Origin: a virus
Virus record (IMG/VR): IMGVR_UViG_3300037461_001289
DNA: 64,000 bases
Direction: 5' to 3' (one strand)
The stretch's first letter is position 1; each line of letters begins with the position of its first letter. The notes under the pieces are model-generated. The model was not told where the DNA came from. It was given only the letters and a program-made list of their open reading frames with translations, and searched no databases. Of this stretch, positions 6,459 to 55,895 are shown piece after piece. Position numbers and translations under genes: made by a program.

Positions 6459-6769
6459 TGCCGCACGAGGGGTCGAAGGCGAAGCGCGTGCTCGACCAGG
6501 TGCGGGCGCTGCTCGGCGTGTCGACGGCCGGGCCGGCGTGCCTGACGTGCGGGGCTGTGACGCCGTGTCAGGTATGCGGTGGCAAGCAGGTGCGCGCGGA
6601 GAACCTCATCCGCGCGCTGCGCGAGGTGCTACGCGAGACCCCGGGCGACGGGCTCGGCCCGGGCTGGGGGCGGGAAAACCAGCAGCTGGAGGAGCAGCGG
6701 GCGGGGACGTTCGCGGCGACGACGTTGGCGTTGAGCGGCCGGAAGTTCAGCGGAAACGAGAGTGATTGA
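6458..6769 (+). CDS. Hypothetical protein with CxxC...CxxC zinc ribbon
   Basis: CLTC and CQVC; TGATG coupling at both ends. Confidence 0.6.
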   Translation: MPHEGSKAKRVLDQVRALLGVSTAGPACLTCGAVTPCQVCGGKQVRAENLIRALREVLRETPGDGLGPGWGRENQQLEEQRAGTFAATTLALSGRKFSGNESD

Positions 6770-7203
6770 TGAGACCGACGCGAAATGAGTGGCTGCTCGA
6801 CATGGCCGCGCTGGTCGCGCGGCGGTCGACCTGCGCCCGGCGCAGCGTCGGCTGCGTGCTCGTCGACGTCCGCGGACACGTATTGTCCACTGGCTACAAT
6901 GGCCGGCCGCGGGGCTTCGCCCACTGCAACGAGGGCGCGCCGTGCCCCGGCGTCGGCGCGCCGACGGGGTCCGACCTCGATCTGTGCGAGTCGGTCCACG
7001 CGGAGCAAAATGCGCTCTTGCAGTGCCGCGACGTCGAGTTGATCGAGGTCTGCTACGTGACCGTCTCGCCGTGCCTGACGTGCGTCAAGCTGCTGCTCAA
7101 CACGTCGTGTCGGCGGGTCGTCGCGGCGGCGCCGTACGCGCACGAGGCCGCCGCCCGCGAGCTGTGGACGCGCGGTGGACGCCGTTGGGAGGTGCCGACG
7201 TGA
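6769..7203 (+). CDS. dCMP deaminase
   Basis: STCARRSVGCVL, GYNG, HAEQNA and SPCLTC zinc ligands. Confidence 0.92.
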   Translation: MRPTRNEWLLDMAALVARRSTCARRSVGCVLVDVRGHVLSTGYNGRPRGFAHCNEGAPCPGVGAPTGSDLDLCESVHAEQNALLQCRDVELIEVCYVTVSPCLTCVKLLLNTSCRRVVAAAPYAHEAAARELWTRGGRRWEVPT

Positions 7204-8875: not shown

Positions 8876-8891
8876 TATAATACGCGCGTAT
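8876..8891 (+). promoter_or_regulatory. -10 element TATAAT overlapping palindrome ATACGCGCGTAT upstream of recombinase
   Basis: Perfect TATAAT 8876-8881; no clear -35; palindrome resembles the IR arm core TACGCG. Confidence 0.45.
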
Positions 8892-8934
8892 GATACGATG
8901 GCTCGACATGCCGCGATGGAAAGGGCGTAACACG

Positions 8935-9873
8935 GTGAGCACCGCGCTCGTACGACGCGACGACGCGCGACCGCCGACGGGGCTTGCGTTGCCGCCGCGA
9001 CAGCTCGCAGCGGCGCAGCGCTATCTCGCTGCGGCCCGCGCGCCAAACACACATCTGGCGCGCCGGGCTGATTGGCGCGTGTTCACGGCGTGGTGCGACG
9101 CCAACGCGCGGCCAGCGCTGCCGGCCGGGGTCGACACCGTCTTCTCGTTCCTGCTCGATCAGGTCGACATGCACGCGAAGAAGCCGGCGACGCTGGCGCG
9201 TTACTTGACGTCCATCGCGACGGCGCACGGCGGTGCTGGGCTGCCTGACCCGACCAAGGAGAAGCGGATCGCTGAGCTGATGGACGGGGTCCGGCGAGTA
9301 CGCGGGACGCGGCAGCGGCTCGCGGCACCGGTGACCCACGAGGTGCTCACGGCTGTGAAGCCGCATTGCGACTTGCGCGATTGGGCGGTCGTGTGCTTCG
9401 GGCAGGCGCTTGCAGCGCGGCGGTCGGAGCTGTGCGCCCTTGACGTGGCCGACCTCAAGTTCGAGGCGCAGGGCGTCGCGGTCACGTTCCGCCGGTCGAA
9501 GACCGATCAAGAGGGCAAGGGCGCGGTGATCGGGGTGCGTCGGCTGCCCGGGTCGCCGCTGTGCCCGGTCGCGGCGCTCGAGGCGTACCTGCAGGGGCGC
9601 GCCAGCGGGCCGGTGTTCCGCGGGACGCGGGCGGCGCACCTGACGCCGATGGAGGTCCACCGCACGGTCAAGCGGGTCGTGGCGGCGGCCGGGTACGACC
9701 CGGCGCTGTACTCCGGCCACAGCCTGCGGGCGGGGTACGTCACCGACGCCCGCCGCGCGGGTCAGTCGTGGACAGCGATCATGGGGCATACGCGGCACAG
9801 CGACCTCAAGACGGTGAAGGGGTACGCGCGCTATGACGTCGATCCATTCGCCACCGCGCCCAAAGAGGCATAG
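8935..9873 (+). CDS. Tyrosine recombinase, Cre-like with N-terminal SAM-like domain
   Basis: Catalytic residues ARRSEL (R), SKTD (K), GHSLRAG (HxxR), HTRH, VKGY (Y); GTG start after GGAAAGGG. Confidence 0.9.
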   Translation: MSTALVRRDDARPPTGLALPPRQLAAAQRYLAAARAPNTHLARRADWRVFTAWCDANARPALPAGVDTVFSFLLDQVDMHAKKPATLARYLTSIATAHGGAGLPDPTKEKRIAELMDGVRRVRGTRQRLAAPVTHEVLTAVKPHCDLRDWAVVCFGQALAARRSELCALDVADLKFEAQGVAVTFRRSKTDQEGKGAVIGVRRLPGSPLCPVAALEAYLQGRASGPVFRGTRAAHLTPMEVHRTVKRVVAAAGYDPALYSGHSLRAGYVTDARRAGQSWTAIMGHTRHSDLKTVKGYARYDVDPFATAPKEA

Positions 9874-27488: not shown

Positions 27489-27694
27489 CGACGCGCCCGC
27501 GTTGCCTTTAGCGCCTCGGACTTCGTCCCAAACGGCCCCACGCGACTACCAGTTGGTGAATACGCGACCCAACCGCGACCGCGGCTGCCGACGATGTACC
27601 ACCCGCGCGACGGCAACTTGCCCGACCGACGCTTCTTAGTGGTCTCGAGTAACTGCTGCAGCTGCACCTCAAATTTCGTCCCGAAGTTGCTCAC
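27485..27694 (-). CDS. Small basic protein
   Basis: GTGA coupling; GWVAYSPTGSRVGPFGTKSEA. Confidence 0.5.
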   Translation of the reverse strand: MSNFGTKFEVQLQQLLETTKKRRSGKLPSRGWYIVGSRGRGWVAYSPTGSRVGPFGTKSEALKATRARR

Positions 27695-29319
27695 GCGAAC
27701 TCCTTGGCCCCCACTTCGTGATCGTCGCTGAACTTGTCGAGCACCGCGAGCGTGACGTTGGCCCAATCGAGCACCGTCGTCAGCCCCGGGTCCTTCTTCC
27801 AATCCTTGACCGACGGCTTCGCCTTGAGCCGCGCGTCGAGCAGCGGCAGCACCTCGACCCCGTACAGCAAGATCGCCAACGCTTGCAAGAAGTGTAACGA
27901 CTGCTGCGGTGGCACCATCGGCGCGGTGCCATAGGCGAACAACTCCTCACGCAGTAGCGCGGTCAACGCCTTCGCGAGTGGACCGTCGAGCGCCGCCTCG
28001 GTCAACCCGAGCTGCCCGAACACGCGGGCCTGATCACCCTTGGCGGCTTTGGCGACCTTGCGCACCTGCCCCAACCGCAGCGCCGCGACCTCTTCATTGG
28101 TCGCGTTGTTGAGCCACGTCGCGAACGCCTTGGCGTCCAGCTTGCCGACCGCGCCCATCAGCTGCCCCTGCGCCGCGTCGACCACCCCGGCCGCCGTGCC
28201 GCCGCTGAACGCGGTCACCAGCGCCTTGGTCACCCCGCGCTGGACCTGGCCCATGACGTCGAGCCACCGCGGCATCCCCTTGTAGACGAGGTTCGCCGTC
28301 CGCCCGTGCGCCGGCTTGTCCACGGCGCCGACCACGACCCGCGCCTCCGGCGCCACGACGAGCGCCAGGCGCCTGACGACCCGCCCGCCCTCGCGGTGCC
28401 ACCACCGCGCGTCAAGCTCGGCCTTGGCCAGCACCCGCCACTCGCCCTTGACGTGCGGGTCCATGAGGCGGACCTTGTCGCCCGCGAGCGCGGTCGCGAC
28501 GACCCAGTGCCCCGCCTTGCCCGGCTGCGTCCAGCTGTCGACCACGAGCAGCACCGGCAGGTCCCGCGCCAGGAACGGCGCGAGCGCGTCGACCCCGCGC
28601 ATCACGAAGACGCTGGCGTGGCAGCCCAGCGCCACCGCCGCCTTGACGAGCCCCGACGGCCGCACGCCCAGCACCGGCACGTTGCCGGCCAGCACCGCGA
28701 CCTCGTCCTCAGTGACCTCGATGCCGTGGTGCGCGAGCACCGCGCGCAGCGCCGCGGGGCCGCAGGTCCACGGCGTGCTCTGCGCTGTGCCGACCACCTG
28801 CCCGACCGCGACGTCGTCGCGCAGCGCCGCGTAGACATAGATGGCGCGGCCATCGACCTCAAACGACGGTGGGAGGATCTCACGGGCGCGCTTGGCCCGG
28901 AACGACGTGTGGAACAGGAAGGTCAGCGCGTCCGGCTCGTAGCGGTGCCCGGCCGGCGCCGCGTCGTTGCGCACGAGCAGGTTGGCCAGCGCCTCGATCT
29001 GCCGGGTGATGGCGAACGGCACGCCGCCGACCTCGGTCTCGGCGAGCACGCGCGTCTTGAGGTAGAGCATCTGCGCGCCCGTCTTGTACCCGCTCGGCAG
29101 CAGCTCCGCCGCGCGCTCCGCGCGGAACGGGGTATAGAAGCTGAACGTCGCATAGCGGCGCTTGGTCCGCGGATCGACCGTGTACGTGACCCCGACCGCC
29201 GCGAGGTCGTTGCGCGCGAGGCGGTCGGTGAAGAGGTCGATGGCCCGCTGCACGTCGGGCGGCACGGCCTCCGCCCCGATCTGCGCCCCGTGATACCGCT
29301 GCCGTCGCCGTCGTGACAT
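27691..29319 (-). CDS. Polyprotein-like protein with C39-family cysteine peptidase domain
   Basis: QSTPWTCGPAAL (Cys), GHWVV (His), LMDP (Asp); tandem ~80-aa duplication N-terminal to it; SD GGGAG. Confidence 0.75.
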   Translation of the reverse strand: MSRRRRQRYHGAQIGAEAVPPDVQRAIDLFTDRLARNDLAAVGVTYTVDPRTKRRYATFSFYTPFRAERAAELLPSGYKTGAQMLYLKTRVLAETEVGGVPFAITRQIEALANLLVRNDAAPAGHRYEPDALTFLFHTSFRAKRAREILPPSFEVDGRAIYVYAALRDDVAVGQVVGTAQSTPWTCGPAALRAVLAHHGIEVTEDEVAVLAGNVPVLGVRPSGLVKAAVALGCHASVFVMRGVDALAPFLARDLPVLLVVDSWTQPGKAGHWVVATALAGDKVRLMDPHVKGEWRVLAKAELDARWWHREGGRVVRRLALVVAPEARVVVGAVDKPAHGRTANLVYKGMPRWLDVMGQVQRGVTKALVTAFSGGTAAGVVDAAQGQLMGAVGKLDAKAFATWLNNATNEEVAALRLGQVRKVAKAAKGDQARVFGQLGLTEAALDGPLAKALTALLREELFAYGTAPMVPPQQSLHFLQALAILLYGVEVLPLLDARLKAKPSVKDWKKDPGLTTVLDWANVTLAVLDKFSDDHEVGAKEFA

Positions 29320-29327
29320 GGGTCTCC

Positions 29328-29927
29328 CTACTTGCCGAGGATGGCCGCGAGCTGCGCCTCGGTCACCCGATTCGGCCACCCCTTGATCTGGTAGCTGTAC
29401 GTCGCGCCGTCGGCCTTGACGTCCTCGACGAGCCCGCCCTGCCCGTTGCGGTACAGCACGATGCCGCGCGGGTACGCCGGCCCCGCCGGCTGCCCGATCT
29501 GCTCCGCGAGGAGCTGCTTCAGCTCGGCCTCGGGCTTGGTCACGGTGAAGTTGGGGATGAGCGCGCCCGCGTCGATCTCAACAGTTGACACCCACGCCCC
29601 GTTGAGCCACACGGTGCTCTTGATCACTGCCTTCTTGCCTGCGATCTCCGCCGCGAGCCCGACCGGGTAGCACGGCGCCGGCCGCTTCGCCGCCTCGACC
29701 TCGACCGCCTTGCGCTTCGTGATCTCCGCGTCGAGCTTCGCCTTCAGCGCCGCCTTCTTGGCCGCGTCCTTCTCGGCCGCGAACTCGGCCAGCGTCACCT
29801 TGAACGTCTCGTCACCTGCGCTCATCTCGGTCCTCCCTGTTTGGGACGACGCCTCGCGGCGGGTGGCGAACCAGTAGGCCGCGCCACACCCCGCCGCGAA
29901 GGCGCCGACTGTCAGCAACTTGCCCAT
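29328..29927 (-). CDS. N-anchored membrane protein with coiled coil
   Basis: MGKLLTVGAFAAGCGAAYWFAT. Confidence 0.6.
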   Translation of the reverse strand: MGKLLTVGAFAAGCGAAYWFATRREASSQTGRTEMSAGDETFKVTLAEFAAEKDAAKKAALKAKLDAEITKRKAVEVEAAKRPAPCYPVGLAAEIAGKKAVIKSTVWLNGAWVSTVEIDAGALIPNFTVTKPEAELKQLLAEQIGQPAGPAYPRGIVLYRNGQGGLVEDVKADGATYSYQIKGWPNRVTEAQLAAILGK

Positions 29928-33178: not shown

Positions 33179-33987
33179 GCACCCGCCTTGAGCGACTGCT
33201 CAACTGCCAACCACAGCGGAACGCGAGCAGCAACATGGAGCGCAACGCCGAGCGCGGCAGCGGCTTGCGCCGGCTTCTTCGTTGCAAGCGCCGACGCCTT
33301 GACCACGGCCTCGAAGGTGCCCGGGGTCTTGGTCAGCCCGCTCGATAGGTTGGGGCCGCCCTGGTTGTGGCCGAAGTAGACCGCCGCCCACAGGGCCGGG
33401 CCGACAAGCGCTGCCTTGCTCGCCCGCGAATAGAAGGCGCGCCACTCCGGCATCATCTTCTGGAGTGACTTCAGCGGATCGAAGCGCTCAGCCAGCGACA
33501 GATCACGCGGGTACTTGCGGATGATCTGACACAGCCCGGCGGCCCACGCATTCGGCTGACCGTTCGTGCCGTCCGGCAGCGGCTGCCCCGCGCGCCAGTA
33601 GCCGACCTTCTTCGGTGGCGTACCAACACCGTTGGGGTAGTAGTTGTATATCCCCGCGTCCCCGCCGCTCTCGATCTCGACCATCGCCGCCGCGAGCGCC
33701 CACGGGAATGACCCGCATGTCTGCTTGATCAGCGCAGCGACGTTGTACGTGCGGAAGTTCTGTAGCACCTCGTCGGCGATCCCCATGCGCGCCACCCTCA
33801 CGGCGACCTTGCGCGCCGCCTCGTCAACCACTTGCACCAACGTCGGCGGCGGGGTCGTCATCATCTTGCCCGCCGTGTCGTAAACCGACTCGACGACGCC
33901 CTCGAGCACGCCACGCCCCCGCGTCGCCAGGTACAGCGCGCCCGCGCCGACCGCCAGCCCCCCGCCGATGAGCAAGCCGCGATTCAT
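33175..33987 (-). CDS. Membrane-anchored lytic transglycosylase-like protein
   Basis: N-terminal Gly-rich TM; LAAAMVEIESGG, GLCQI, YFGHNQG. Confidence 0.7.
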   Translation of the reverse strand: MNRGLLIGGGLAVGAGALYLATRGRGVLEGVVESVYDTAGKMMTTPPPTLVQVVDEAARKVAVRVARMGIADEVLQNFRTYNVAALIKQTCGSFPWALAAAMVEIESGGDAGIYNYYPNGVGTPPKKVGYWRAGQPLPDGTNGQPNAWAAGLCQIIRKYPRDLSLAERFDPLKSLQKMMPEWRAFYSRASKAALVGPALWAAVYFGHNQGGPNLSSGLTKTPGTFEAVVKASALATKKPAQAAAALGVALHVAARVPLWLAVEQSLKAGA

Positions 33988-34514
33988 GCGATCCCGTTGG
34001 CCTGGCGCAGCGCCGCGATGTTGAACGCCACGTCACGCCGGTACGCGGAGTCGCCGTTGTACAGCAGGATCGCCTTCGTCCAATCGCCGTCGACCTTCTT
34101 GAGCAGCTCGACGAGCAGCTTGGCCGCCATCCGCGCCTGCGCGCGCACGTCAAACAGCTTCGTCAGCGGCACGCCGGCCTTGAACGCCTTGCCGCTGCCG
34201 ACGAGGTGGTACGGATTGAGTTGCATAAACCCAAACGGCCGCCACTGCTCGGCGGTGAACATCTCGCCCCACGTCATGCTCGATCCGGGGATCCGCTTGT
34301 CCTTGTTGCGCGCGTAGCTGTTCGCGTACGTCTTGTTGTTGCCCCCGTGCTTCTTGCCGGTTGACAACACGGTGAACTGCGTCTCACGCCGCCCGATGCC
34401 GTAGAGCACCTCGGGCGGGATGCCGTACTCCTTCGACGCCTCGTCAATCGCCTTGCGGATGTCCGCGGGCGGCTCTTTCCAATCGGCGGGGAACACAACG
34501 ATGGCGGGGAACAT
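33984..34514 (-). CDS. SLT-family lytic transglycosylase
   Basis: SKEYGIPPEVLYGIGRRET, FGFMQL, AAKLL, WTKAILLYNG. Confidence 0.8.
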   Translation of the reverse strand: MFPAIVVFPADWKEPPADIRKAIDEASKEYGIPPEVLYGIGRRETQFTVLSTGKKHGGNNKTYANSYARNKDKRIPGSSMTWGEMFTAEQWRPFGFMQLNPYHLVGSGKAFKAGVPLTKLFDVRAQARMAAKLLVELLKKVDGDWTKAILLYNGDSAYRRDVAFNIAALRQANGIA

Positions 34515-45420: not shown

Positions 45421-47601
45421 TTGTCAGAGCAAGGGCCGGGGAACGGCGACGCGACGCCTGTCAACACGGGACGTCCAGAGAGCGTTGTCGAGGCTTTGCA
45501 CTACTATGCGGCGCGTGGTTGGACGGCGATTCCGATCATCAGCCGTGGTAAGAAGGCCGCGGTAGTCGGCTGGCAACGACGCGTCGTGGCTGATGCACGG
45601 CCTGAAGAATTTACCGGGCGCAACATCGGGCTCGCGCTCGGTGCGCCGAGCGGCAATCTTGTCGACGTCGATCTTGACTGCGCCGAGGCCGTCGTCGTGG
45701 CTCGGTACCTACTACCGCCGACAGGGATGATTCACGGGCGCGCCGGGCGGCGCGGGTCACATCGCTGGTATGTCGTCGCTGATGCGCCACACACAACGCG
45801 TTATCGAAGTCCGTTGCCCGACGGTGGCACGCTCGTTGAGCTACGTGGGACCGGTGGGCAGACGGTCGTGCCGCCGAGTATACACCCATCGGGTGAAATA
45901 CTTGAGTGGGCTGACTGGCCGCTCGAGCCGTCACAGCCGGCGCTCGCCGAGCTGCGCCTCGCAGTCGCAGACGTCGCGGTCGCTGCGCTGCTTGCACGTC
46001 AGCACCCTGGTGATGGGTCGCGACATGACTTTGCACTTGCGCTTGCTGGTACGTTAGCACACCTTCGGTATCCGTTTGAGCACGCCGAGATCTTAGTTGA
46101 AGCTGTCAGCGAGGCGGCTGGCGATGCGAATGCGCGTGATCGCCGTCAGTGCGTCGTCGACACATATCGTAAGTTTGAAAACGGTGAGGAGGTGGTCGGC
46201 GCGCCGACCCTCGCGGCGCTGGTCGGCGGAAACGCCGTCGTTGACAAGGTCCGCGCGTGGCTCGCTGGCCGCGTCACCGTGGCCGCCAACGCTGGTTTCC
46301 AAGGCCAGCTGACCGACCGTCTTGGCGACTACGCGCGATTCTTGCAGTACACGCCGCGCGGCCAGCTGAGTCTGACCGCGGCCAACGCTACGCTGATCCT
46401 GGTCCACGACCACGAGTTCGGCGGGCCGCCGCGTGACGACTTCGGCGCGCAGGCGGGCGTGAGCGCGTCGCTTGGGTTCGACGAACTCGAGCAGCAGGAG
46501 GTCTGGCTTCGTCAGCCGCCCGATGGCGTCGGCCTTGTCGTACCGGCGGGCGCGTTCGCCGATCACCATGAGGTCTATGTCCAAGCCTGGTTGCAACGCG
46601 CGACTGGGCTTGACTTTTCAAAGGTGATCGGAGCTGCGGTGCGCGCCGCAGCGCGTGAGCGCAACTTCAACCCGGTCGTCGACTACCTCGAGAGCCTCGG
46701 GTGGGACGGCGTCGAGCGCCTGTCTGGTTGGCTGACGACGTATCTTGGCGCGCCGGCGTCGGCGATCAATAAGGCCATCGGGCGCTGGTGGTTGATCAGT
46801 GCCGTCGCACGGGCCTATCGGCCCGGCTGTCGGGTCGACCACATGATCGTGCTCGAGGGGCCGCAGGGCAAGAAGAAGTCAACCGCATTGCAGATCCTCG
46901 CCGGGCGGTGGTACAGCGCCGGGCCCGAGAAGATCGGTGATAAAGACGGGATGCAGAGCCTACGCGGAAAGTGGATCGTTGAGATGGCTGAGCTCGACGC
47001 GATCCGTGGCCGTGAGCTATCGACGATCAAGAAGTTCATCACCGATCCGAGTGACATGTATCGTCCGAGCTACGGACGTCGTAACATCACCGCTGCGCGG
47101 CGCTGCGTCTTCGCGGGCACGACAAACGAGGAGACGTATCTTCATGACGTCACCGGTGGACGACGTTTTTGGCCGGTACGGACTGGTGTCATCGACGATA
47201 AAGCGCTCGCGCGCGACCGTGATCAGCTATTAGCTGAGGCGGTCGTCGCCTTCGAAGCCGGTGAGTCTTGGTGGCCGCTTGAGACCGATCAGATCTCACA
47301 GCTAAACGAGATTCAAGACGAGCGCTACGAGCTTGATGCGTGGGCTGACGCAATTTCGAACTTTCTCGATGGGAATATCGGTAGCGCGTTGGACAAACGT
47401 ATGGGGCCGAGCGTCGCGCGTCGTGAGCAGGTCACGGTTGACGATTTGTTGACGATGGCTCTTTCGATTGAGCGCGGTCGCTATAGCCGTGCTGACCAGA
47501 TGCGCGTCGTCTCGGTGTTGCGCAAGCTACGTTGGAAACGCGTTCGCATTGTGGTGAACGGGCAACGTGTTTGGATCTACCAACGACCGGCCGAGGCTTA
47601 A
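45421..47601 (+). CDS. Bifunctional primase-polymerase fused to VirE-like helicase
   Basis: N-terminal NIGL...VDVD, H, ELRG...VVPPSIH; C-terminal LEGPQGKKKST, WIVEMAELD, FAGTTN, GGRRFWP; SD AGGAGG, TTG start. Confidence 0.9.
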   Translation: MSEQGPGNGDATPVNTGRPESVVEALHYYAARGWTAIPIISRGKKAAVVGWQRRVVADARPEEFTGRNIGLALGAPSGNLVDVDLDCAEAVVVARYLLPPTGMIHGRAGRRGSHRWYVVADAPHTTRYRSPLPDGGTLVELRGTGGQTVVPPSIHPSGEILEWADWPLEPSQPALAELRLAVADVAVAALLARQHPGDGSRHDFALALAGTLAHLRYPFEHAEILVEAVSEAAGDANARDRRQCVVDTYRKFENGEEVVGAPTLAALVGGNAVVDKVRAWLAGRVTVAANAGFQGQLTDRLGDYARFLQYTPRGQLSLTAANATLILVHDHEFGGPPRDDFGAQAGVSASLGFDELEQQEVWLRQPPDGVGLVVPAGAFADHHEVYVQAWLQRATGLDFSKVIGAAVRAAARERNFNPVVDYLESLGWDGVERLSGWLTTYLGAPASAINKAIGRWWLISAVARAYRPGCRVDHMIVLEGPQGKKKSTALQILAGRWYSAGPEKIGDKDGMQSLRGKWIVEMAELDAIRGRELSTIKKFITDPSDMYRPSYGRRNITAARRCVFAGTTNEETYLHDVTGGRRFWPVRTGVIDDKALARDRDQLLAEAVVAFEAGESWWPLETDQISQLNEIQDERYELDAWADAISNFLDGNIGSALDKRMGPSVARREQVTVDDLLTMALSIERGRYSRADQMRVVSVLRKLRWKRVRIVVNGQRVWIYQRPAEA

Positions 47602-47604
47602 ACC

Positions 47605-48066
47605 ATGCTTACACGCGTGCCAATTCGCTTGCGTAAGACCTGCTCGTGTGGATCTGATGACGGCTACTACGTCAAGGTCAGTGGGCAGAATGTTGCATAC
47701 TGTGTCTGCGAGCGGGCGGCTGGGTATAACGTGCCGCGCGCGGAGACAGTTGAAGTGCCGCGCGTCGTCGGTTCGGAGCCAGGGGTCAAGCCGAATAAGC
47801 GTGTGCGCATCTTTGAACGTGATGGCAACGCCTGTGTTGAGTGCGGGCGTAGATCTGTCGACGGCGCAATTTTGAACGTTGCGCATCTTATAAGCTTAGC
47901 CGACGGCCACGCGCTTGGGATCTCAGAAGCTGAGCTGTTTGCCGACGAAAATCTCTACACTGCCTGCGAGATCTGCAATCTCGGGCGGGGTAGGCAGTCG
48001 GTTAGCCCGCAGATGTTTTTGCGGATCGTGCGTGCCCGTCAGTGTCGTGCGGCCGCCGAAAAATAG
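47605..48066 (+). CDS. HNH endonuclease
   Basis: IFERDGNACVECG, VAHL, ENLYTACEICN; lower GC. Confidence 0.8.
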   Translation: MLTRVPIRLRKTCSCGSDDGYYVKVSGQNVAYCVCERAAGYNVPRAETVEVPRVVGSEPGVKPNKRVRIFERDGNACVECGRRSVDGAILNVAHLISLADGHALGISEAELFADENLYTACEICNLGRGRQSVSPQMFLRIVRARQCRAAAEK

Positions 48067-48082
48067 TTGCAATGCATCTACG

Positions 48083-48119
48083 TTTTCTTGTTTACGCGTG
48101 TACGTTTACGCGGTAGCGT
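48083..48119 (+). promoter_or_regulatory. Sigma70-like promoter
   Basis: TTTTCTTG-TTTACG (48091)-17-TAGCGT (48114). Confidence 0.6.
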
Positions 48120-48126
48120 GCTAGCC

Positions 48127-48528
48127 ATGACGACCGAGACCGACTTCTGTCCGCCGCCTACGCTCGGCGCCTGCGCCGATGAGCTGTACCGGCTGCGCGA
48201 GGCACGCCTCGATGCGCAGAAGGTCGTCGATGCGCTCGCAGCGCGGGAGGCCAAGCTCCGCGACCACGTCATCGGCGAGCTCGAGCGACAGGGCGCGACG
48301 GCGGTGAGCGGCAAGCATGCCCGCGCGGGCGTGACGTTCACGCAGCTCGGCAAGGTCGCGGACTGGGATGCGTTCTACGCCCACGTCCGCGCGACGGGGG
48401 ACTTCTCGTTGATGCAGCGCCGCCTGAACGACGGCGCGTTGAGAGAACGATGGGATGCGAAGGAGACCGTGCCGGGGATCGTCCCGTTCGCGGTGCCGAA
48501 GATCAGCTTGACGAAGACGAAAGGGTAG
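48127..48528 (+). CDS. Conserved-looking phage replication-module coiled-coil protein
   Basis: Helical N-half, VADWDAFYAHV...LMQRRL; function unknown. Confidence 0.6.
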   Translation: MTTETDFCPPPTLGACADELYRLREARLDAQKVVDALAAREAKLRDHVIGELERQGATAVSGKHARAGVTFTQLGKVADWDAFYAHVRATGDFSLMQRRLNDGALRERWDAKETVPGIVPFAVPKISLTKTKG

Positions 48529-48532
48529 CACG

Positions 48533-48730
48533 ATGGCCAAGAAAGCGAAGAAGCCGGTGATGTTGGTGGTCGCGTCGAAGATCAAGGCCCTCGCGAAGGA
48601 GAAGGGGTACCGCATCGGCGGCGACGCGCTCGCGCGCCTGTCGATCAAGGTCGAGGACGTGCTCAACGACGCGACGACGAGCGCGCAGGGCGAGAAGCGG
48701 ATGACGATCAAGGACCGCGACATCAGCTAG
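48533..48730 (+). CDS. Bacterial histone-fold protein (Bd0055/HBb-like)
   Basis: LVVASKIKALAKEKG...DALARLSIKVEDVLNDATTSAQGEKRMTIKDRDI, with histone-fold RxTI..RD signature. Confidence 0.8.
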   Translation: MAKKAKKPVMLVVASKIKALAKEKGYRIGGDALARLSIKVEDVLNDATTSAQGEKRMTIKDRDIS

Positions 48731-48763: not shown

Positions 48764-49116
48764 ATGAGACGCCGTGAGGACGTGCCGGAGGAGGTCCAAA
48801 AGGAGATCGCTGCGTTGTACGCGAAGGGGAGATCGTACTTCGCCATCATGAAGAAGTTCAAGGCCCACAAGGTGACGACCACCGAGATCGTCAAGGCGCG
48901 CGACAAGTTCGGTCTGCCGCCCGGCATCCTACGGGTGCCGGGCGCGGTCACGCGTTGGCCCCGCGCAACGGGCACGGGACAGACGCGTTTGGCGCGGCCA
49001 TGCGGACGATGGCCGAGCAGCTCGTCGCGCTCGGGGTCTCGTCGGTGGTCATCGACCTCGATGCGGGGACGTACACGGTCAAGTCGCTGACCGAGGTCAG
49101 CGGCAAACTTGTGTAG
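48764..49116 (+). CDS. Small HTH-like protein, apparently frameshifted near 48920
   Basis: 0-frame ORF ends 49090 with an unnatural tail; -1 frame is open to 49116 and stops just before the next SD. Confidence 0.4.
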
Positions 49117-49129
49117 TCGGAGGTGATAG

Positions 49130-49945
49130 ATGACGACCAAGGAGCTGGCAACGACGAACAAGGGTGACACGGGCATGACGAGGTGGGAGGACGAGCTTGC
49201 GCGTCAAGCGGTCGAGGCCGCCGATCAAGAGGCGTCGACCGGGGGCGGGCAGTTCTTCAGCCTGCGCGGCGGGGTGCTGAAGCTCAACGGCGCTGTGCTG
49301 CCCGACAACCAGATGGCGGTCATCGTGCTCGACGCGCTGATCGAGAATGTCTTCTACGCTGGCCCGTTCGACCCGGACGACCCGCAGACGCCGGACTGCT
49401 ACGCCTTCGGGCACGATGAGAAGGCGCTGGCGCCGCACGCCGACGCGCTGAAGCCGCAGGCGGCGAGCTGCGGGGTGTGCCCGCACAACCAGTGGGGCTC
49501 GCTCGTCGTCGGCGGGCAGCAGCGGCGCGGCAAGGCCTGTCGCAATCGTCGCCGGCTCGGGCTCGTCCCGGCGGGCACCCTGCAAGGCCAGCACTTCGTG
49601 CCGTACACGTCGGCCGATGAGATCACCAGTGCGCCGCTCGCGTACCTCGCGCTGCCACCGACGAGCCTCGGGGGCTTCGCCACCTATGTCAAGCAGCTGG
49701 CCGGCGCGCTCAAGATCCCGCCGCGCGCGGCCTTCACGAAGGTCGCGGTCACGCCCGACGCGAAGTCGCAGTTCAAGGTCGCGTTCACCGCGCTCGGCCA
49801 GATACCGACAGGTCTCCTCACGGCCGTCATGCAGCGGGCGGAGGAGGTCAAGGCGGTGATCGACTTCCCGTACCAAGCCGGGGGTCGACCTGAGACAACG
49901 CCTGGAAGGGGCCCCGATGTCAAAGGCAAGAAGCGCAAGTACTAG
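49130..49945 (+). CDS. Putative single-stranded DNA-binding/annealing protein
   Basis: Between primase and polymerase; CGVCPHNQWGS...GKACRNRRRL Cys motif; SD GGAGG. Confidence 0.55.
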   Translation: MTTKELATTNKGDTGMTRWEDELARQAVEAADQEASTGGGQFFSLRGGVLKLNGAVLPDNQMAVIVLDALIENVFYAGPFDPDDPQTPDCYAFGHDEKALAPHADALKPQAASCGVCPHNQWGSLVVGGQQRRGKACRNRRRLGLVPAGTLQGQHFVPYTSADEITSAPLAYLALPPTSLGGFATYVKQLAGALKIPPRAAFTKVAVTPDAKSQFKVAFTALGQIPTGLLTAVMQRAEEVKAVIDFPYQAGGRPETTPGRGPDVKGKKRKY

Positions 49946-50252: not shown

Positions 50253-52247
50253 ATGACGGACCTACTGACAGAGCTCAACGATGCTGTCGTCATCGACTTT
50301 GAAACGGACGGCATAAGGCAACGCCCGGAGTATCCGCCGGTCCCATGCGGCGTCGCGATCAAAAATGGTTCTCAGCCCGCGCGGTACTGGGCATGGGGAC
50401 ATCACGGGCACGAAAACCCCGATACGCTTGCCGACGGACTGCGGGCGTTACGCGAGGCGTGGAACAGCGGGCGTCCGTTACTTTTCCATAATGCGAAGTT
50501 CGACGTCGCGGTCGCGTGCGAGGGGCTCGGGTTGCCGATGCCGCCTTGGAGTCGCCTACACGACTCGTTGCCGATGCTCTTCCTCATCGACCCGCGCGCG
50601 ACGACCTACAGCCTGAAGCCGTCGTCGGAGGTGCTGCTCGGTTTGAAGCCCGAGGAGCGCGACGCCGTGGTCGACTGGCTGGTCGAGCGCCAGCCGGTCT
50701 CGGGTGTCAAGCTCTCGGCGACGCCGAAGGGTCAGCACTACGCCGGCGCCTACATCGCCTGGGCGCCACCGGCGCTCGTCGGGGCGTACTGCATCGGCGA
50801 CGTCGACCGGACACGGGCCCTCGCGCTGTGGGCGGCCCAGAGGCTCGTCGACCAAGGCATGGTCGAGGCGTATGACAGAGAGCGTCGCCTGCTACCGGTC
50901 ATCATGGACATGGAGCGGCGCGGGGTGCGCGTCGCCGTTGACCGGCTCGCCGACGACCTCGCGTCGGCCGAGACGACGTTCACCGAGCTCGACAGCTGGC
51001 TGCGCGACCGGCTTCAGATCGGTGACAGCGCGAACCTCGACTCCGGCGCGGAGCTGGCCGCGGCCTTGGTCAGCTGCGGGGCAGCGACGCCGGCGAGCCT
51101 TGGGGTCACCCCGAAGTCGGGCAAGCTGCAGACCAACAAGGCGGCCTTTGAGCGCGGGGTCACCGATCCGCAGCTCAAGGCGACGCTGCGCTACCGCGCT
51201 GCGCTGTCGACGGCGGTCAAGACGTTCATGGCGCCGTGGTACGCGACCGCGCAGACGGGCGGGCGGATCTACACGACGTGGAACAGTACGCGGACGTCAC
51301 ACAACGAAAACGACGCCGGTGCGCGGACCGGGCGGTTCAGCTCAAACCCGAATTTCCAAAATATACCTCGTGAGATCAAGCCGCTGTTCGCTTGCGTGGC
51401 GGAGCCGGGGTTGCCCGCGCCACCGTTCGCGTTGCCAGCGCTGCCGCAGATGCGCAGCTATGTGCTCCCCGAGGTCGGACACGTCCTCGTCGGCCGCGAC
51501 TTCGCGTCGCAGGAGCTACGTGTCATGGCGCACTTCGAGGACGGGCTCGTCGCCCAGGCCTATCGCGATCAACCCGACCTCGACCTGCACCAGTACGTGA
51601 CTGATACGCTCAACCAACGCGGCCACGTGATGACGCGGCGTCGGGCAAAATCTCTCCATTTTGCGGTCCTTTACGGCGTCGGCGTCGGGCACCTCGCCGA
51701 GCTGCTCGAGTGCTCGGTGATCGAGGCGCGGGCGGTGCTCGACGCCTACTATCACGAATTCCCCTCGGTCCGTGCGTTGAGCAATGACACGCGCCAGCGG
51801 TGGAGGCAAGGCCTGCCGGTCCGCACCTGGGGCGGTCGGGTCTACGCGCCGGAGCCGTCGCGGTTGGTCGACGGTCGTGTGCGTGGGTTCGAGTACAAGG
51901 CGCTGAACGTCATCGTGCAGGGGAGTTCAGCTGACCTGACGAAGGCGGCGATGATCGCCTATGCCGAGGTCGCCGGCGACGCACCGTTGATCTTGACTGT
52001 CCACGACGAACTCGTTGCGACCGCGCCGCTCGACAGCCACCTTGCGGCGATGGGGCGCTTACGCGACGCCATGAACGTTGATCGTTTGGACGTGCCGATG
52101 CGCAGCGATGGCTATGTCGGCGTCGACTGGGAGCACAAGACGCCGCTCAAGGATGGGCCGCCGACGTCGTCGGAGCCGCGCCCGCTTGATGGGCCGTATG
52201 TCAGGCCCGACGGTAAGTCTGAACACCAACCACCGTTGCCGAAGTGA
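50253..52247 (+). CDS. Family A DNA polymerase with 3'-5' exonuclease
   Basis: ExoI VIDFET, FHNAKFD; RTGRFSS; motif A DFASQELR, motif B RAKSLHFAVLYG, motif C TVHDE. Confidence 0.95.
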   Translation: MTDLLTELNDAVVIDFETDGIRQRPEYPPVPCGVAIKNGSQPARYWAWGHHGHENPDTLADGLRALREAWNSGRPLLFHNAKFDVAVACEGLGLPMPPWSRLHDSLPMLFLIDPRATTYSLKPSSEVLLGLKPEERDAVVDWLVERQPVSGVKLSATPKGQHYAGAYIAWAPPALVGAYCIGDVDRTRALALWAAQRLVDQGMVEAYDRERRLLPVIMDMERRGVRVAVDRLADDLASAETTFTELDSWLRDRLQIGDSANLDSGAELAAALVSCGAATPASLGVTPKSGKLQTNKAAFERGVTDPQLKATLRYRAALSTAVKTFMAPWYATAQTGGRIYTTWNSTRTSHNENDAGARTGRFSSNPNFQNIPREIKPLFACVAEPGLPAPPFALPALPQMRSYVLPEVGHVLVGRDFASQELRVMAHFEDGLVAQAYRDQPDLDLHQYVTDTLNQRGHVMTRRRAKSLHFAVLYGVGVGHLAELLECSVIEARAVLDAYYHEFPSVRALSNDTRQRWRQGLPVRTWGGRVYAPEPSRLVDGRVRGFEYKALNVIVQGSSADLTKAAMIAYAEVAGDAPLILTVHDELVATAPLDSHLAAMGRLRDAMNVDRLDVPMRSDGYVGVDWEHKTPLKDGPPTSSEPRPLDGPYVRPDGKSEHQPPLPK

Positions 52248-52251
52248 AGTT

Positions 52252-52692
52252 ATGCGTGTGATTCTTACTTGCTTGAAGTGCGGCTGTGACTATGAACGCG
52301 TAAGTAGTAGTCGGCACAAGTATTGTGCTGCGTGCTACGACGGCGCAATTAAAGCGAGTCAGCAAAAACTAAAGACTAATCGCGATTGGGTTAAGGCGCA
52401 TCCTGAGCGCGTCCGTGAACTTTCATTGCGTTATCACTACGGCATAACTTCACAGCAACTTGATGAAATGGCCGCAGTGCAGAACGGTCGTTGTGCTATC
52501 TGTGGCGCATCTCCTCGTGCTACATCTAAGCAGAATATGCGTTTGCACATCGATCACGACCACAAAACCAAACGCGTTCGTGGACTGCTTTGTTTTCACT
52601 GTAATCGAGGTCTTGGTAGCTTCGGTGATAACGTCGATGTTCTAAGATCAGCGATTGCGTATCTCAAGAAAGGTGGCCGAAATGCCGATTAA
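52252..52692 (+). CDS. Endonuclease VII-like HNH homing endonuclease
   Basis: QNGRCAICG, HIDHDH, VRGLLCFHCNRGLG; markedly lower GC. Confidence 0.9.
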   Translation: MRVILTCLKCGCDYERVSSSRHKYCAACYDGAIKASQQKLKTNRDWVKAHPERVRELSLRYHYGITSQQLDEMAAVQNGRCAICGASPRATSKQNMRLHIDHDHKTKRVRGLLCFHCNRGLGSFGDNVDVLRSAIAYLKKGGRNAD

Positions 52693-53374
52693 GGCCGTAC
52701 AGCGTTTTCAAGCGTGGAGCTATTCGCGTTTGTCAGACTACGAAGCATGTCCACGTCGAGCAAAGTATAAGCATCTTGATCGTCTCGTCGAACCGAGCGG
52801 CCCCGCGTTGCAACGCGGCAGCGACATCCATAAGGAGTGTGAAGGCTACGTCACCGGTCGGCTCACCGAGCTGCCCAAGTCGCTGGCACGGTTCCCCGAG
52901 GAGTTCGCCGCGCTGCGCGCGCGGAAGGACGTCGAGTGCGAGCGACAGCTCGCGGTCACCTCGAGTTGGCAGCCATGTGATTGGTTCGCGGCCAACGCGT
53001 GGCTGCGCGTCGTCGTCGATGCGACCTACGCCGGCGCGGCCGACGAGGCCGGGCGCGTGCTGTTGGACTACAAAACCGGGCGCGTCTATCCGGACAAGGT
53101 CGACCAACTTGATCTGTACGGCCTGATCGCCTTCGCCTACCATCCGGGGATCAAGCGCGTCGACTCCGCGTTTTGGTACCTCGACGCCGGCGAGGTCATC
53201 GCGCGCTCGCTCGTGGTGACCGAGCTCGACAAGCTGAAGAAGAAGTGGACGAAGCGCGTCGCGCCGCTGCTGGCCGACGAGCGGTTCGATCCGAAGCCGG
53301 GCGATCCTTGTCGCTGGTGCCATTTCGGGCAGGCCGGGAAGGCGAAGGGTGGCCCGGGCCTGTGTGAGCTGTAG
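52682..53374 (+). CDS. PD-(D/E)XK Cas4-like exonuclease
   Basis: WSYSRL...CP, RGSDIH, VVD, LLDYKTG, QLDLY, CRWC. Confidence 0.85.
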   Translation: MPIKAVQRFQAWSYSRLSDYEACPRRAKYKHLDRLVEPSGPALQRGSDIHKECEGYVTGRLTELPKSLARFPEEFAALRARKDVECERQLAVTSSWQPCDWFAANAWLRVVVDATYAGAADEAGRVLLDYKTGRVYPDKVDQLDLYGLIAFAYHPGIKRVDSAFWYLDAGEVIARSLVVTELDKLKKKWTKRVAPLLADERFDPKPGDPCRWCHFGQAGKAKGGPGLCEL

Positions 53375-54969: not shown

Positions 54970-55191
54970 ATGAAACGACACGTATGCTCGGAGTGTGGTT
55001 TCGACACCGACTGCCTTGCGGACGGCGCGCTGCGTGACTCCGCGGAAGCGTTTCTCGCGGCTGTACAACACGAGGCGGAGGGTGAGGTGCACCGGTTCCA
55101 CAGCAGTGGTCACACGCCGGAGTACTTCGCCGCACTCGGCGAGCTACGTGCGGCCGTAGTACGAGTCGAGGAGGAAGAACGATGCGGGTGA
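54970..55191 (+). CDS. Small zinc-ribbon protein
   Basis: CSECG; SD GAGGT. Confidence 0.5.
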   Translation: MKRHVCSECGFDTDCLADGALRDSAEAFLAAVQHEAEGEVHRFHSSGHTPEYFAALGELRAAVVRVEEEERCG

Positions 55192-55895
55192 TCGAGCCGT
55201 ACGTCGTCATCGAGACCGACCTCAGCGCGGCTGCGGTCATGCTCGCGACCGTCGAGCGTGCGGGGCGGACGTGCTACCAGAGCAGCTGGAAGAGCGGGCC
55301 CGGGTCCGCGCCGGGCTTCGCGGCGATGATCATCAAGCGCGGGCACGAGTCGGTGCTCGAGCACGTCAGCGTGACCGCGCGCTTCGTCGTCGACCGCGGC
55401 GTGAGCCATGAGTTGGTGCGGCACCGGTTGTGTGCGTTCAGTCAGGAGTCAACGCGCTTCTGCAACTACGCTGGCGACCGCTTCGGCGGCGAGGTCACGT
55501 TCATCCGCCCGCCGTGGGTCGATCTCGGACACTTGGCTGATCCGATGTCGTTGACCTGGGCTGCCGCGATGCGCGACGCGGAGGTCACGTATCTGCAGCT
55601 TCTCGAGCTTGGTTGGAAGCCGGAGCAGGCGCGGTCGGTGTTGCCAAACAGTCTCAAGACCGACATCGTCGTGACCGCGAACCTACGCGAGTGGCGGCAC
55701 ATCTTCCGGCTGCGGACCGCGGCGCCTGCGCACCCGCAGATGCGCCAGGTGATGGTGCCACTGCGCGAGCGGCTCGGCGTCGCGTTCGCGCCGGTGTTCA
55801 GTGATCTGCCGCCATCGGCCGCTGTGTCGTCGCGTGCGGAGGTGTGCGTCTGTGTACACGACGAGGTTCGGCTGGAGAAGGTCGGCGCGCCGTGA
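55182..55895 (+). CDS. thyX: FAD-dependent thymidylate synthase
   Basis: GHESVLEH, SHELVRHRLCAFSQESTRF (RHRx7S), ARSVLP, NLREWRH, AHPQMR. Confidence 0.95.
   Translation: MRVIEPYVVIETDLSAAAVMLATVERAGRTCYQSSWKSGPGSAPGFAAMIIKRGHESVLEHVSVTARFVVDRGVSHELVRHRLCAFSQESTRFCNYAGDRFGGEVTFIRPPWVDLGHLADPMSLTWAAAMRDAEVTYLQLLELGWKPEQARSVLPNSLKTDIVVTANLREWRHIFRLRTAAPAHPQMRQVMVPLRERLGVAFAPVFSDLPPSAAVSSRAEVCVCVHDEVRLEKVGAP

What the first reader, a model, noticed from the sequence alone, without database searches (positions are those of the whole stretch)
48533..48730. Virus-encoded bacterial histone in the replication operon
The 65-aa protein closely follows the Bdellovibrio Bd0055/HBb pattern as I recall it (LVVxSKxKxLxKEKG...LS...AxxxxRxTxxxRDI). 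Histones are rare in bacterial viruses. It sits under its own promoter (48091) between primase and polymerase, so it may coat replicating viral DNA, shield it from defences or compete with a host histone. It also hints at a histone-bearing host (e.g. Myxococcota or Bdellovibrionota).
Basis: partly seen in the sequence, partly recalled or inferred. Interest (0 to 1): 0.75.

Follow-up and report, generated by a model that had tools for sequence, protein, structure and literature searches.

The report
Phage-borne miniature histone in replication operon
A 65-residue gene in the DNA-replication operon of an uncultured wetland phage-like element encodes a real bacterial-type miniature histone that probably binds and bends DNA, but such phage histones were already catalogued from metagenomes in 2024-2025 and none has been tested.

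Summary
ORF 48533-48730 (+) is a real gene (GC3 0.98). It encodes a 7-kDa, pI 10 protein with an alpha3-truncated histone fold. It matches the solved bacterial histones HLp (E 6e-8; family profile 7.5e-22) and HBb/Bd0055 (profile 5.7e-19), and its AlphaFold model superposes on both at about 1 A. The RD clamp and most HBb DNA-contact residues are kept. The R/N pair that builds HLp-type tetramers is absent, so an HBb-like dimer is predicted.

The gene is translationally coupled to the upstream gene. It lies between a Pam3 gp33-like gene and a Pam3 gp34-like gene (a probable zinc OB-fold SSB), upstream of PolA. This position is conserved in four related contigs (a fifth is likely) and absent in more distant relatives. 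Unrelated IMG/VR phages also place such histones beside SSB, recombinase and nuclease genes.

Not supported: a promoter of its own, and a histone-bearing host. The element's late genes are unrecognisable, so "virus" rests on the replication module.

The kind is known from Schwab 2024 and Liu 2025 (84 Bd0055-like proteins in Caudoviricetes). This scan also found a phage histone on other DNA before (e1-3274529). Verdict: new member of a known kind; function untested.

The parts
48533..48730 (+). Histone gene: 65 aa, 7.06 kDa, pI 9.99, net charge +7. It has a Lys-rich N-terminal tail (residues 1-9) followed by an alpha3-truncated histone fold.
   Evidence: ORF and GC3 0.98. PDB sequence hits to HLp and HBb. 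AF2 model pLDDT 89 with Foldseek rmsd about 1 A to HLp and HBb. Charge and pI.
48520..48525 (+). AAAGGG Shine-Dalgarno-like box, 7 nt before the ATG and inside the end of the upstream gene. This indicates translational coupling.
   Evidence: Read directly from the sequence.
48127..48528 (+). Upstream gene, 133 aa, Pam3 gp33-like (DUF7307), function unknown. Its stop codon lies 4 nt before the histone start.
   Evidence: phrog_13900 at E 1.4e-11. ESM Atlas clusters with PF23984 DUF7307, almost all viral. Homologues in phages ctUtU524 and AXL3.
48067..48126 (+). 60-nt AT-richer spacer between the HNH gene and the gp33-like gene, with a direct repeat GTTTACGCG at 48090 and 48104. If it is regulatory, it serves the whole gp33-like/histone/SSB-like/PolA run, not the histone alone.
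   Evidence: Sequence. The two exact copies are the only ones in the window, but the motif with one mismatch is not enriched. No sigma-70-type promoter was predicted.
48764..49116 (+). Small HTH-like gene downstream of the histone. It is one 121-aa ORF in relative L004 but is split over two reading frames here (48764-49090 and 48955-49116).
   Evidence: tblastn of the L004 protein matches frame 2 and then frame 1 of the window. Weak HTH hits.
49130..49945 (+). 271-aa Pam3 gp34-like protein, a probable zinc-containing OB-fold ssDNA-binding protein.
   Evidence: phrog_27714. Atlas PF23977 Pam3_Gp34. AF2 pLDDT 86. VIA-align: phiC31 gp3 Z 7.7, RB69 gp32 Z 5.4, T4 gp32 Z 4.9, plus many RPA/BRCA2 OB folds. 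Four conserved Cys: C90, C114, C117, C137. The Z values are middling, so this assignment is moderate.
45421..47601 (+). PrimPol + VapE-type primase-helicase, the first large gene of the rightward replication operon.
   Evidence: Pfam Prim-Pol 2.5e-17 and VapE-like 1.9e-74. PHROG helicase/primase families.
47605..48066 (+). HNH endonuclease. It is absent from relatives L003 and L005, which suggests a mobile insert.
   Evidence: Pfam HNH and PHROG HNH families. Synteny comparison.
50253..52247 (+). Family A DNA polymerase.
   Evidence: Pfam DNA_pol_A 6.5e-51. 40-42% identical to PolA of siphoviruses ctUtU524, PW916 and AXL3.
52655..53374 (+). PD-(D/E)XK (Cas4-like) nuclease of the replication/recombination module.
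   Evidence: Pfam PDDEXK_1 2.7e-17.

Best explanation
The gene encodes a phage-borne alpha3-truncated histone of the bacterial HBb/HLp kind.

Shown here:
- The fold.
- The intramolecular R56-D63 'RD clamp' and the R-x-T motif of loop 2.
- The a1 contact residues S15, K16, K18 and K22.
- R62.
- A Lys-rich N-terminal tail and a net charge of +7.
- Co-directional, translationally coupled placement in the replication operon.
- Conservation of that placement in a phage lineage.

Inferred:
- Two chains form the obligatory histone-fold homodimer.
- The dimer grips the sugar-phosphate backbone of double-stranded DNA without sequence preference, through the paired a1 N-termini and the L1/L2 loops. It then bends DNA as HBb does, or sheathes it.
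- It lacks the Arg/Asn pair that builds the HLp/HTkC face-to-face tetramer, so it most likely works as a dimer and does not wrap DNA.
- It is made together with the primase-helicase, the gp32-like SSB candidate, PolA and the Cas4-like nuclease. I therefore propose it acts on the element's own replicating or recombining DNA as an architectural partner: SSB on single strands, histone on the duplex product. This is analogous to phage-encoded HU-type proteins such as SPO1 TF1.
For: Fold and homology:
- Sequence hits to HLp and HBb.
- AF2 model and Foldseek superposition.
- AFDB clusters annotated as CBF/NF-Y/archaeal histone or DUF1931.

Residues:
- HBb S9, K10, K12, K16, D49, R51, T53, R57 and D58 align with window S15, K16, K18, K22, E54, R56, T58, R62 and D63. 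This uses the alignment and the residue roles in PMC11317129.
- K16, K18, K22, R27, R56, T58, R62 and D63 are among 22 positions invariant in nine relatives that are only 49-95% identical.
- HLp tetramer residues R49 and N53 correspond to S50 and E54, as in HBb (S45, D49).

Context:
- The order gp33-like, histone, gp34-like, PolA, PDDEXK is conserved in L003, L004, L005 and L029. The histone is 61-87% identical and its neighbours 55-89%.
- A 64-aa gene of unchecked sequence sits one gene further upstream (a 124-aa gene intervenes) in a fifth contig.
- Independent IMG/VR phages place homologues between an exonuclease and Sak4 (L008) and between SSB and UvsX (L012/L013).
- The downstream gene looks like a gp32-type OB-fold protein.
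Against: - No DNA-binding or oligomer data exist for this protein or for any phage alpha3 histone.
- No multimer prediction could be run here.
- HBb K52 of the loop-2 'KT' motif is Met here and Gln in relatives.
- The protein falls below every Pfam gathering threshold.
- dN/dS estimates (0.25-0.56 for the closest pairs, about 1 for distant ones) are unreliable. The gene is only 65 codons long and GC3 is 98%.
- A replication role is inferred from gene neighbourhood only. Relatives that lack the histone (AXL3, ctUtU524, L030) keep the same module, so the gene is an accessory, not a core replication factor.
- No expression data: no RNA holder was listed.
Confidence: 0.55

Rival explanations
1. 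Counter-defence coat. The histone sheathes incoming or replicating element DNA, in the end-on coating mode proposed for Bd0055 by Hocher et al. 2023. This hides the DNA from restriction enzymes, CRISPR effectors or other nucleases.
For: The sheath mode is described for the homologue Bd0055 (PMC10627809). The protein has a very high positive charge and a Lys tail. The gene occupies a variable accessory slot that holds unrelated small ORFs in relatives, as anti-defence genes often do. The element also invests in DNA modification: ThyA-like hydroxymethylase, dNMP-kinase-like protein, dCMP deaminase, and Dam plus a large methyltransferase.
Against: The gene is not at the very start of an early operon, where anti-defence genes usually sit. 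It lies mid-operon, coupled to replication genes. Non-specific coating would also block the element's own polymerases unless it is regulated. No defence-related neighbour was found.
Confidence: 0.17
2. Host takeover. The protein binds the host nucleoid to compact it and shut off host transcription. If the host has its own histone, it may instead form poison heterodimers with it.
For: Phages are known to encode proteins that act on host nucleoid-associated proteins or the nucleoid, for example T4 MotB and LUZ24 gp4 (titles listed). Histone folds heterodimerise readily (general knowledge).
Against: The host is unknown. The nearest relatives of the replication module infect Xanthomonadales, which are not known to carry histones. 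The phage clade is not a recent copy of any cellular histone: the best cellular matches are 44-48% identical and the tree is unresolved. The recurrent neighbours are SSB, recombinase and nuclease genes, not host-shutoff genes.
Confidence: 0.13
3. A histone fold used as a protein-protein module rather than for DNA binding, as in TAFs, NF-Y or the DUF1931 pseudodimers. For example, it could act as an adaptor for the gp33-like or gp34-like neighbour.
For: Schwab et al. note that some prokaryotic histone-fold groups lack DNA-binding residues and may have other roles (PMC11390915). The gene is tightly coupled to two neighbours of unknown function.
Against: The DNA-contact residues and the RD clamp of HBb and HLp are conserved and invariant within the clade. 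pI 10 and the Lys-rich tail fit nucleic-acid binding.
Confidence: 0.06

Closest known systems
HBb / Bd0055 of Bdellovibrio bacteriovorus ('bacterial dimer' alpha3 histone; PDB 8CMP, 8FVX, 8FW7, 9EZZ, 9F0E)
   Same: - About 60-residue singlet with truncated a3 and the RD clamp.
- The same a1 motif, LVVxSKxKxLxKEKG.
- Ser and an acidic residue at the two positions where FtF histones carry Arg and Asn.
- 37-38% identity, rmsd 0.9-1.1 A.
   Different: - Encoded by a phage-like element inside a replication operon, not as a chromosomal major nucleoid protein.
- Has a 9-residue Lys-rich N-terminal tail and is more basic (net +7 against +3).
- The loop-2 KT motif is MT.
- Pairwise sequence score is lower than to HLp.
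- Does not group with HBb on the (unresolved) tree.
HLp of Leptospira perolatii (face-to-face alpha3 histone; PDB 9QT0-9QT2)
   Same: - Best single-sequence and profile hit (E 5.7e-8 and 7.5e-22).
- 39% identity, rmsd 1.0 A.
- Shares the A-S-K start of a1 and the GDA motif of a2.
   Different: The tetramer-interface residues R49, N53 and T61 are S50, E54 and R62 here. The DNA-wrapping tetramer is therefore not expected.
Bd0055-like and face-to-face viral histone-fold proteins of Caudoviricetes (BBVHFP / VFFHFP; Liu et al., hLife 2025, PMC13681535)
   Same: - Same kind of object: singlet alpha3 histone-fold proteins encoded on metagenomic tailed-phage contigs.
- VFFHFPs also carry a Lys-rich N-terminal tail of 5-40 residues.
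- Ten IMG/VR contigs held here carry relatives 36-44% identical.
   Different: - This contig is not in the IMG/VR copy searched.
- The protein combines a Lys tail (a VFFHFP trait) with a dimer-type interface (a BBVHFP trait).
- In the parts of that paper I read or word-searched I found no description of gene neighbourhoods. The conserved replication/recombination context reported here is additional.
'Phage histones' of Schwab et al. 2024 (A0A2E7QIQ9 type) / VTTHFP
   Same: An alpha3 histone fold on phage or prophage contigs.
   Different: Those carry a long C-terminal tetramerisation helix and lack the RxTxxxD motif. This protein ends two residues after a3 and has R56-x-T58-xxxx-D63.
Phage-encoded HU-family proteins such as Bacillus phage SPO1 TF1 (functional analogue; from general knowledge, not tested here)
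   Same: A small basic dimeric DNA-bending protein made by a phage that also modifies its pyrimidines. This element carries a ThyA-like pyrimidine hydroxymethylase homologue, a kinase-like protein and a dCMP deaminase, all shared with siphovirus ctUtU524.
   Different: The fold is unrelated (HU/IHF versus histone). No evidence here for preference for modified DNA.

Membership tests
alpha3-truncated histone family (Schwab et al. 2024) | Histone fold (a1-L1-a2-L2-a3) with a3 cut to 3-4 residues and a2 shorter than in nucleosomal histones | tested here: met
   AF2 model pLDDT 89.2 with a1 14-23, a2 30-53 and a3 61-63. rmsd 0.9-1.1 A to HBb, HLp and HTkC.
alpha3-truncated histone family (Schwab et al. 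2024) | Significant sequence homology to solved members | tested here: met
   phmmer: HLp 5.7e-8, HBb 2e-3. Family profile: HLp 7.5e-22, HBb 5.7e-19, HTkC 1.3e-15.
alpha3-truncated histone family (Schwab et al. 2024) | RxTxxxxD motif / intramolecular RD clamp stabilising loop 2 | tested here: met
   R56, T58 and D63 are present and invariant in the nine closest relatives.
alpha3-truncated histone family (Schwab et al. 2024) | Forms histone-fold dimers and binds dsDNA | not testable with these tools
   No multimer prediction or wet assay is available here. Contact residues are conserved.
Bacterial dimer histones (HBb type) | Lacks the R48/N52 (HLp R49/N53) dimer-dimer residues of FtF histones | tested here: met
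   Window has S50 and E54; HBb has S45 and D49 (criterion from PMC11390915).
Bacterial dimer histones (HBb type) | Conserved lysines on a1 (HMM K11, K13, K17) | tested here: met
   K16, K18 and K22 align with HBb K10, K12 and K16.
Bacterial dimer histones (HBb type) | Clusters by sequence with HBb (the category was defined by CLANS clustering) | tested here: inconclusive
   On a 61-column ML tree the window clade (support 98/96) sits in a weakly supported half away from both HBb and HLp. The pairwise score is higher to HLp than to HBb.
Face-to-face (FtF) histones (HLp, HTkC) | Conserved R49, N53 and R55 network that forms the face-to-face tetramer | tested here: not met
   Only R55 (window R56) is kept. 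R49 corresponds to S50 and N53 to E54. Not filed as FtF despite the best E-value.
'Phage histones' (Schwab 2024) / VTTHFP (Liu 2025) | C-terminal tetramerisation helix after the alpha3 fold, and absence of RxTxxxD | tested here: not met
   The protein ends at residue 65, two residues after a3, and it has the motif.
Pfam CBFD_NFYB_HMF (PF00808) / Histone (PF00125) / DUF1931 (PF09123) | Score above the curated gathering threshold | tested here: not met
   The window protein gets only PF00125 at E 0.1, 13.3 bits against a cut-off of 26.4. Among 42 relatives, 8, 8 and 5 give sub-threshold hits to the three families. The models under-reach for this subfamily; PDB profile and fold evidence decide.
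Tailed phage (Caudoviricetes) as carrier | Recognisable HK97 capsid, portal, terminase and tail genes | tested here: inconclusive
   None was found by PHROGs, Pfam, tblastn or Atlas in the 18-44 kb late operon. The replication and nucleotide-metabolism genes are 40-50% identical to those of siphoviruses. A tyrosine integrase is present.

The most novel reading that the evidence does not exclude
The histone is a dedicated duplex-DNA partner of the phage replication/recombination machinery. It would be loaded on nascent dsDNA next to a gp32-like SSB, and perhaps be tuned to the element's own modified pyrimidine DNA, as TF1 is in SPO1. That would be the first histone with a direct role in viral DNA replication in bacteria. 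It would also explain why unrelated phages place alpha3 histone genes beside SSB, annealase, recombinase and nuclease genes.
Probability: 0.22. Interest if true: 0.7.

Novelty: new member of a known kind. Interest (0 to 1): 0.42.

Why it matters
Bacterial-type histones were recognised only in 2023-2025. Their DNA-binding mode is still disputed (sheath, bend or wrap), and phage-borne copies are known only as entries in metagenome catalogues.

This case adds three things:
- A well-defined lineage in which the gene is conserved: two near-complete genomes of 65-68 kb plus several fragments.
- A fixed position inside the replication operon next to an SSB-like gene.
- Evidence that the same neighbourhood recurs in unrelated phages.

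Together these give a concrete, testable hypothesis for what phage histones do. The 65-residue protein is easy to express for biochemistry. It does not change the picture of where histones occur, and no cultured host or phage is available.

Tried and rejected
- Pfam and PHROGs scans of the protein itself: no family at threshold.
- IMG/VR scan with the single protein: nothing. The 42-sequence alignment was too diverse for pattern search. A 9-sequence alignment worked.
- tblastn of three different alpha3 histones against 50,697 deposited phage genomes: no match at E <= 1. No isolated phage model was identified.
- No whole genome is held for the window. The MAG contig that carries an identical copy (GCA_025490955.1) is not held either.
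- Host: no tRNA genes. A search with the gp34-like protein in 93 genomes of the phylum holding the nearest cellular histones found nothing. The host stays unknown.
- Expression: no RNA holder listed. Only wetland and sediment DNA runs hold the stretch.
- Promoter at 48091: not recovered by the sigma-70 scan. The local repeat GTTTACGCG x2 is not part of a window-wide motif. Repeat search in the operon gave nothing meaningful.
- dN/dS: computed, but judged unreliable because of 65 codons and GC3 of 98%.
- Phylogeny: most deep forks are unresolved with 61 columns, so no donor lineage can be named.
- Late-gene identification: PHROGs, Pfam, tblastn and Atlas gave only a C39 peptidase, a transglycosylase, a GT2 glycosyltransferase and a methyltransferase, with no virion hallmark.
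- Foldseek of the gp34-like model against PDB: no match. VIA-align gave middling OB-fold matches.
- The N-terminal 90 residues fused to a histone in relative P0006: no family found.
- Rejected: that the ORF is a chance frame in GC-rich DNA; that it is an FtF/HLp-type tetramer; that it is a Schwab-type 'phage histone'.

Full report
**Observation.** The ORF at 48533-48730 (+) exists as described and encodes 65 residues beginning MAKKAKKPVMLVVASKIKALAKEKG. In this 61-72% GC window its codon-position GC is 0.55/0.38/0.98. That is the pattern of a true coding frame, and the overlapping minus-strand ORFs lack it. The protein is 7.06 kDa, pI 9.99, with 15 K+R against 8 D+E.

**Identity.**
- phmmer against all PDB chains returns only three sequences, all bacterial histones. 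These are HLp of Leptospira perolatii (9QT0, E 5.7e-8) and two constructs of HBb/Bd0055 (8CMP, 8FVX, E about 2e-3).
- An exhaustive phmmer search of 1.84 billion cluster representatives finds only 55 relatives at E <= 1e-3, both singlets and doublets.
- A profile of 42 singlets hits HLp at 7.5e-22, HBb at 5.7e-19, HTkC at 1.3e-15 and HmvA at 3.6e-8. It then hits archaeal HMfA/B, NF-YB and H4.
- AlphaFold2 with that alignment gives pLDDT 89.2, with a1 14-23, a2 30-53 and a one-turn a3 at 61-63.
- Foldseek ranks HLp, HBb and HTkC first at rmsd 0.9-1.4 A, followed by eukaryotic H4. AFDB clusters and a few 'uncultured Caudovirales' proteins in BFVD share the fold.
- Pfam and PHROGs do not reach the protein.

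**Sub-type.** I used the residue roles published for HBb (PMC11317129) and HLp (PMC12701072).
- The window protein keeps the a1 contacts S15, K16, K18 and K22 (HBb S9, K10, K12, K16).
- It keeps the clamp and loop-2 residues E54, R56, T58, R62 and D63 (HBb D49, R51, T53, R57, D58).
- HBb K52 is Met here.
- The HLp tetramer residues R49 and N53 correspond to S50 and E54, as in HBb (S45, D49).
- Schwab et al. use exactly this absence to separate 'bacterial dimers' from face-to-face histones.
- All eight IMG/VR relatives examined also lack the pair, whereas the nearest cellular group has it.
- The tree (61 columns) is largely unresolved. The window plus three near relatives form a 98/96 clade that groups with neither HBb nor HLp.

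I therefore file it as an alpha3 histone with a predicted HBb-like dimeric mode. It is not an FtF histone. It is also not one of Schwab's 'phage histones', which have a C-terminal tetramerisation helix and no RxTxxxD motif.

**Context in the window.** The rightward operon reads as follows:
1. MerR-like regulator (44247)
2. PrimPol-VapE primase-helicase (45421-47601)
3. HNH endonuclease (47605-48066)
4. 133-aa gene (48127-48528)
5. histone (48533-48730)
6. small HTH-like gene split over two frames (48764-49116)
7. 271-aa gene (49130-49945)
8. 84-aa gene
9. PolA (50253-52247)
10. PD-(D/E)XK nuclease
11. ThyX
12. SNF2 helicase

The histone ATG is 4 nt after the stop of the 133-aa gene and 7 nt after an AAAGGG box. 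No sigma-70-type promoter is predicted at 48091 or elsewhere in the spacer. If that spacer is regulatory, it serves the upstream gene and everything after it.

The flanking genes are Pam3 gp33-like (DUF7307) and Pam3 gp34-like, both almost exclusively viral. I folded the gp34-like protein (pLDDT 86). Foldseek found nothing. VIA-align against 48,161 PDB representatives put phiC31 gp3 (Z 7.7), RB69 gp32 (5.4) and T4 gp32 (4.9) at the top, with BRCA2, RPA, CST and SSB OB folds below. Four Cys are conserved. It is probably a zinc OB-fold ssDNA-binding protein. The Z values are middling, so this is a moderate call.

**Conservation.**
- An identical copy lies on a 24-kb contig of a MAG and in two other assemblies.
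- Diverged relatives keep the order gp33-like, histone, gp34-like, PolA, PDDEXK. The histone is 87, 82, 61 and 63% identical in L003, L004, L005 and L029, and the neighbours are 55-89% identical.
- A fifth contig has a 64-aa gene after the gp33-like gene, with a 124-aa gene between it and the gp34-like gene. Its sequence could not be read, so its identity is unchecked.
- L029 comes from a 67.9-kb contig. It also shares the leftward late operon, so this is one lineage with at least two near-complete genomes.
- More distant relatives of the same module lack the histone. Stenotrophomonas siphovirus AXL3 has nothing in the slot. Siphoviridae sp. ctUtU524 and L030/L031 have unrelated 61- and 82-aa ORFs there.
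- The gene was therefore acquired once, into a variable slot, and then retained.

**Other phages.** A scan of IMG/VR with a 9-sequence alignment found ten viral contigs (21-190 kb) with homologues 36-44% identical. Where neighbours could be named, they are replication or recombination genes:
- L008: ERCC4 nuclease, exonuclease, histone, Sak4 annealase, primase, PolA.
- L012/L013: PolA, SSB, histone, UvsX-like recombinase.

Deposited phage genomes (50,697 records) gave no match to three different alpha3 histones.

**Is the carrier a virus?** The replication and nucleotide-metabolism genes are 40-50% identical to those of complete siphoviruses, and a tyrosine integrase is present. The 26-kb minus-strand late operon is a different matter. 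It yields only a C39 peptidase domain, a lytic transglycosylase and glycan enzymes. No capsid, portal, terminase or tail family was found by PHROGs, Pfam, tblastn or the ESM Atlas. 'Phage-like element' is safe; the virion type is unresolved.

**Host.** The host is unknown. There are no tRNAs, and the holders are wetland or sediment metagenomes. The closest cellular histones (44-48% identity) lie in small-genome MAGs of one phylum, with loci of 37-67% GC. No related prophage was found in 93 genomes of that phylum. The nearest phage relatives infect Xanthomonadales.

**Mechanism.** Shown: fold, conserved contact residues, charge, operon position and lineage conservation. Inferred: a homodimer binds the dsDNA backbone non-specifically and bends or sheathes it, acting on replicating or recombining element DNA alongside the SSB-like protein. 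I give this 0.55. Rivals are a protective coat against nucleases (0.17), action on the host nucleoid or a host histone (0.13) and a non-DNA adaptor role (0.06). dN/dS (0.25-0.56 in the closest pairs) is too noisy to use.

**Novelty.** Schwab et al. 2024 defined the alpha3 family and a 'phage histone' class. Liu et al. 2025 reported 84 Bd0055-like proteins and 289 non-redundant prokaryote-type histone-fold proteins in Caudoviricetes. These include Bd0055-like dimers and Lys-tailed face-to-face forms. This scan has also reported a phage-encoded histone-fold protein on other DNA (e1-3274529). The present gene is thus a new member of a known kind. The recurrent replication/recombination neighbourhood and the conserved slot are, as far as I could read, not yet described, and they give a testable lead.

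Noticed in passing
window 18000-44100 (minus strand): A late operon of about 26 kb and roughly 30 genes has no recognisable capsid, portal, terminase or tail gene by PHROGs, Pfam, tblastn or ESM Atlas. Only a C39 peptidase domain (27691-29379), a lytic transglycosylase (33984-34514) and glycan enzymes are identifiable. The operon is conserved (55-82% aa identity) in a second contig of 67.9 kb (L029). The replication module next to it is typical of siphoviruses. It could be a very divergent tailed phage or another virion type.
   Followed up: partly
window 4214-7203 and 55182-55895: A nucleotide-modification set. It comprises a kinase-like P-loop protein, a divergent ThyA-family enzyme (homologue annotated 'pyrimidine hmase' in siphovirus ctUtU524, 45% identity), a dCMP-deaminase homologue, a Dam-type and a 623-aa DNA methyltransferase, plus a separate ThyX. 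This suggests the element's DNA carries modified pyrimidines.
   Followed up: partly
window 48764-49116: The small HTH-like gene just after the histone is a single 121-aa ORF in relative L004. In the window it is split between two reading frames, as it is in the identical copies on other assemblies. It could be a frameshift, a pseudogene or programmed frameshifting.
   Followed up: partly
L010 9875-10171 and L011 (IMG/VR contigs of 187-190 kb): In two large viral contigs the histone ORF is preceded in the same frame by a Cys/His-rich stretch (CIPCPDGCGEPWCPDCQVHYADCDC). It may be a zinc-finger-histone fusion like the cellular ZZ histones.
   Followed up: no
P0006 (L006 498-965): A metagenomic relative (59% identity) carries the histone domain fused behind an unrecognised N-terminal domain of about 90 residues.
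   Followed up: partly
L027 4352-4864 (Stenotrophomonas phage AXL3, AXL3_44): In AXL3, which lacks the histone, the gp33-like protein itself carries an N-terminal extension of about 40 residues rich in Lys, Ala and Thr (reminiscent of H1 tails).
   Followed up: no
window 8890-9873: A tyrosine integrase/recombinase (phrog_216, phrog_1) is present with no flanking host DNA in the window. It may indicate a temperate or plasmid-prophage lifestyle.
   Followed up: no
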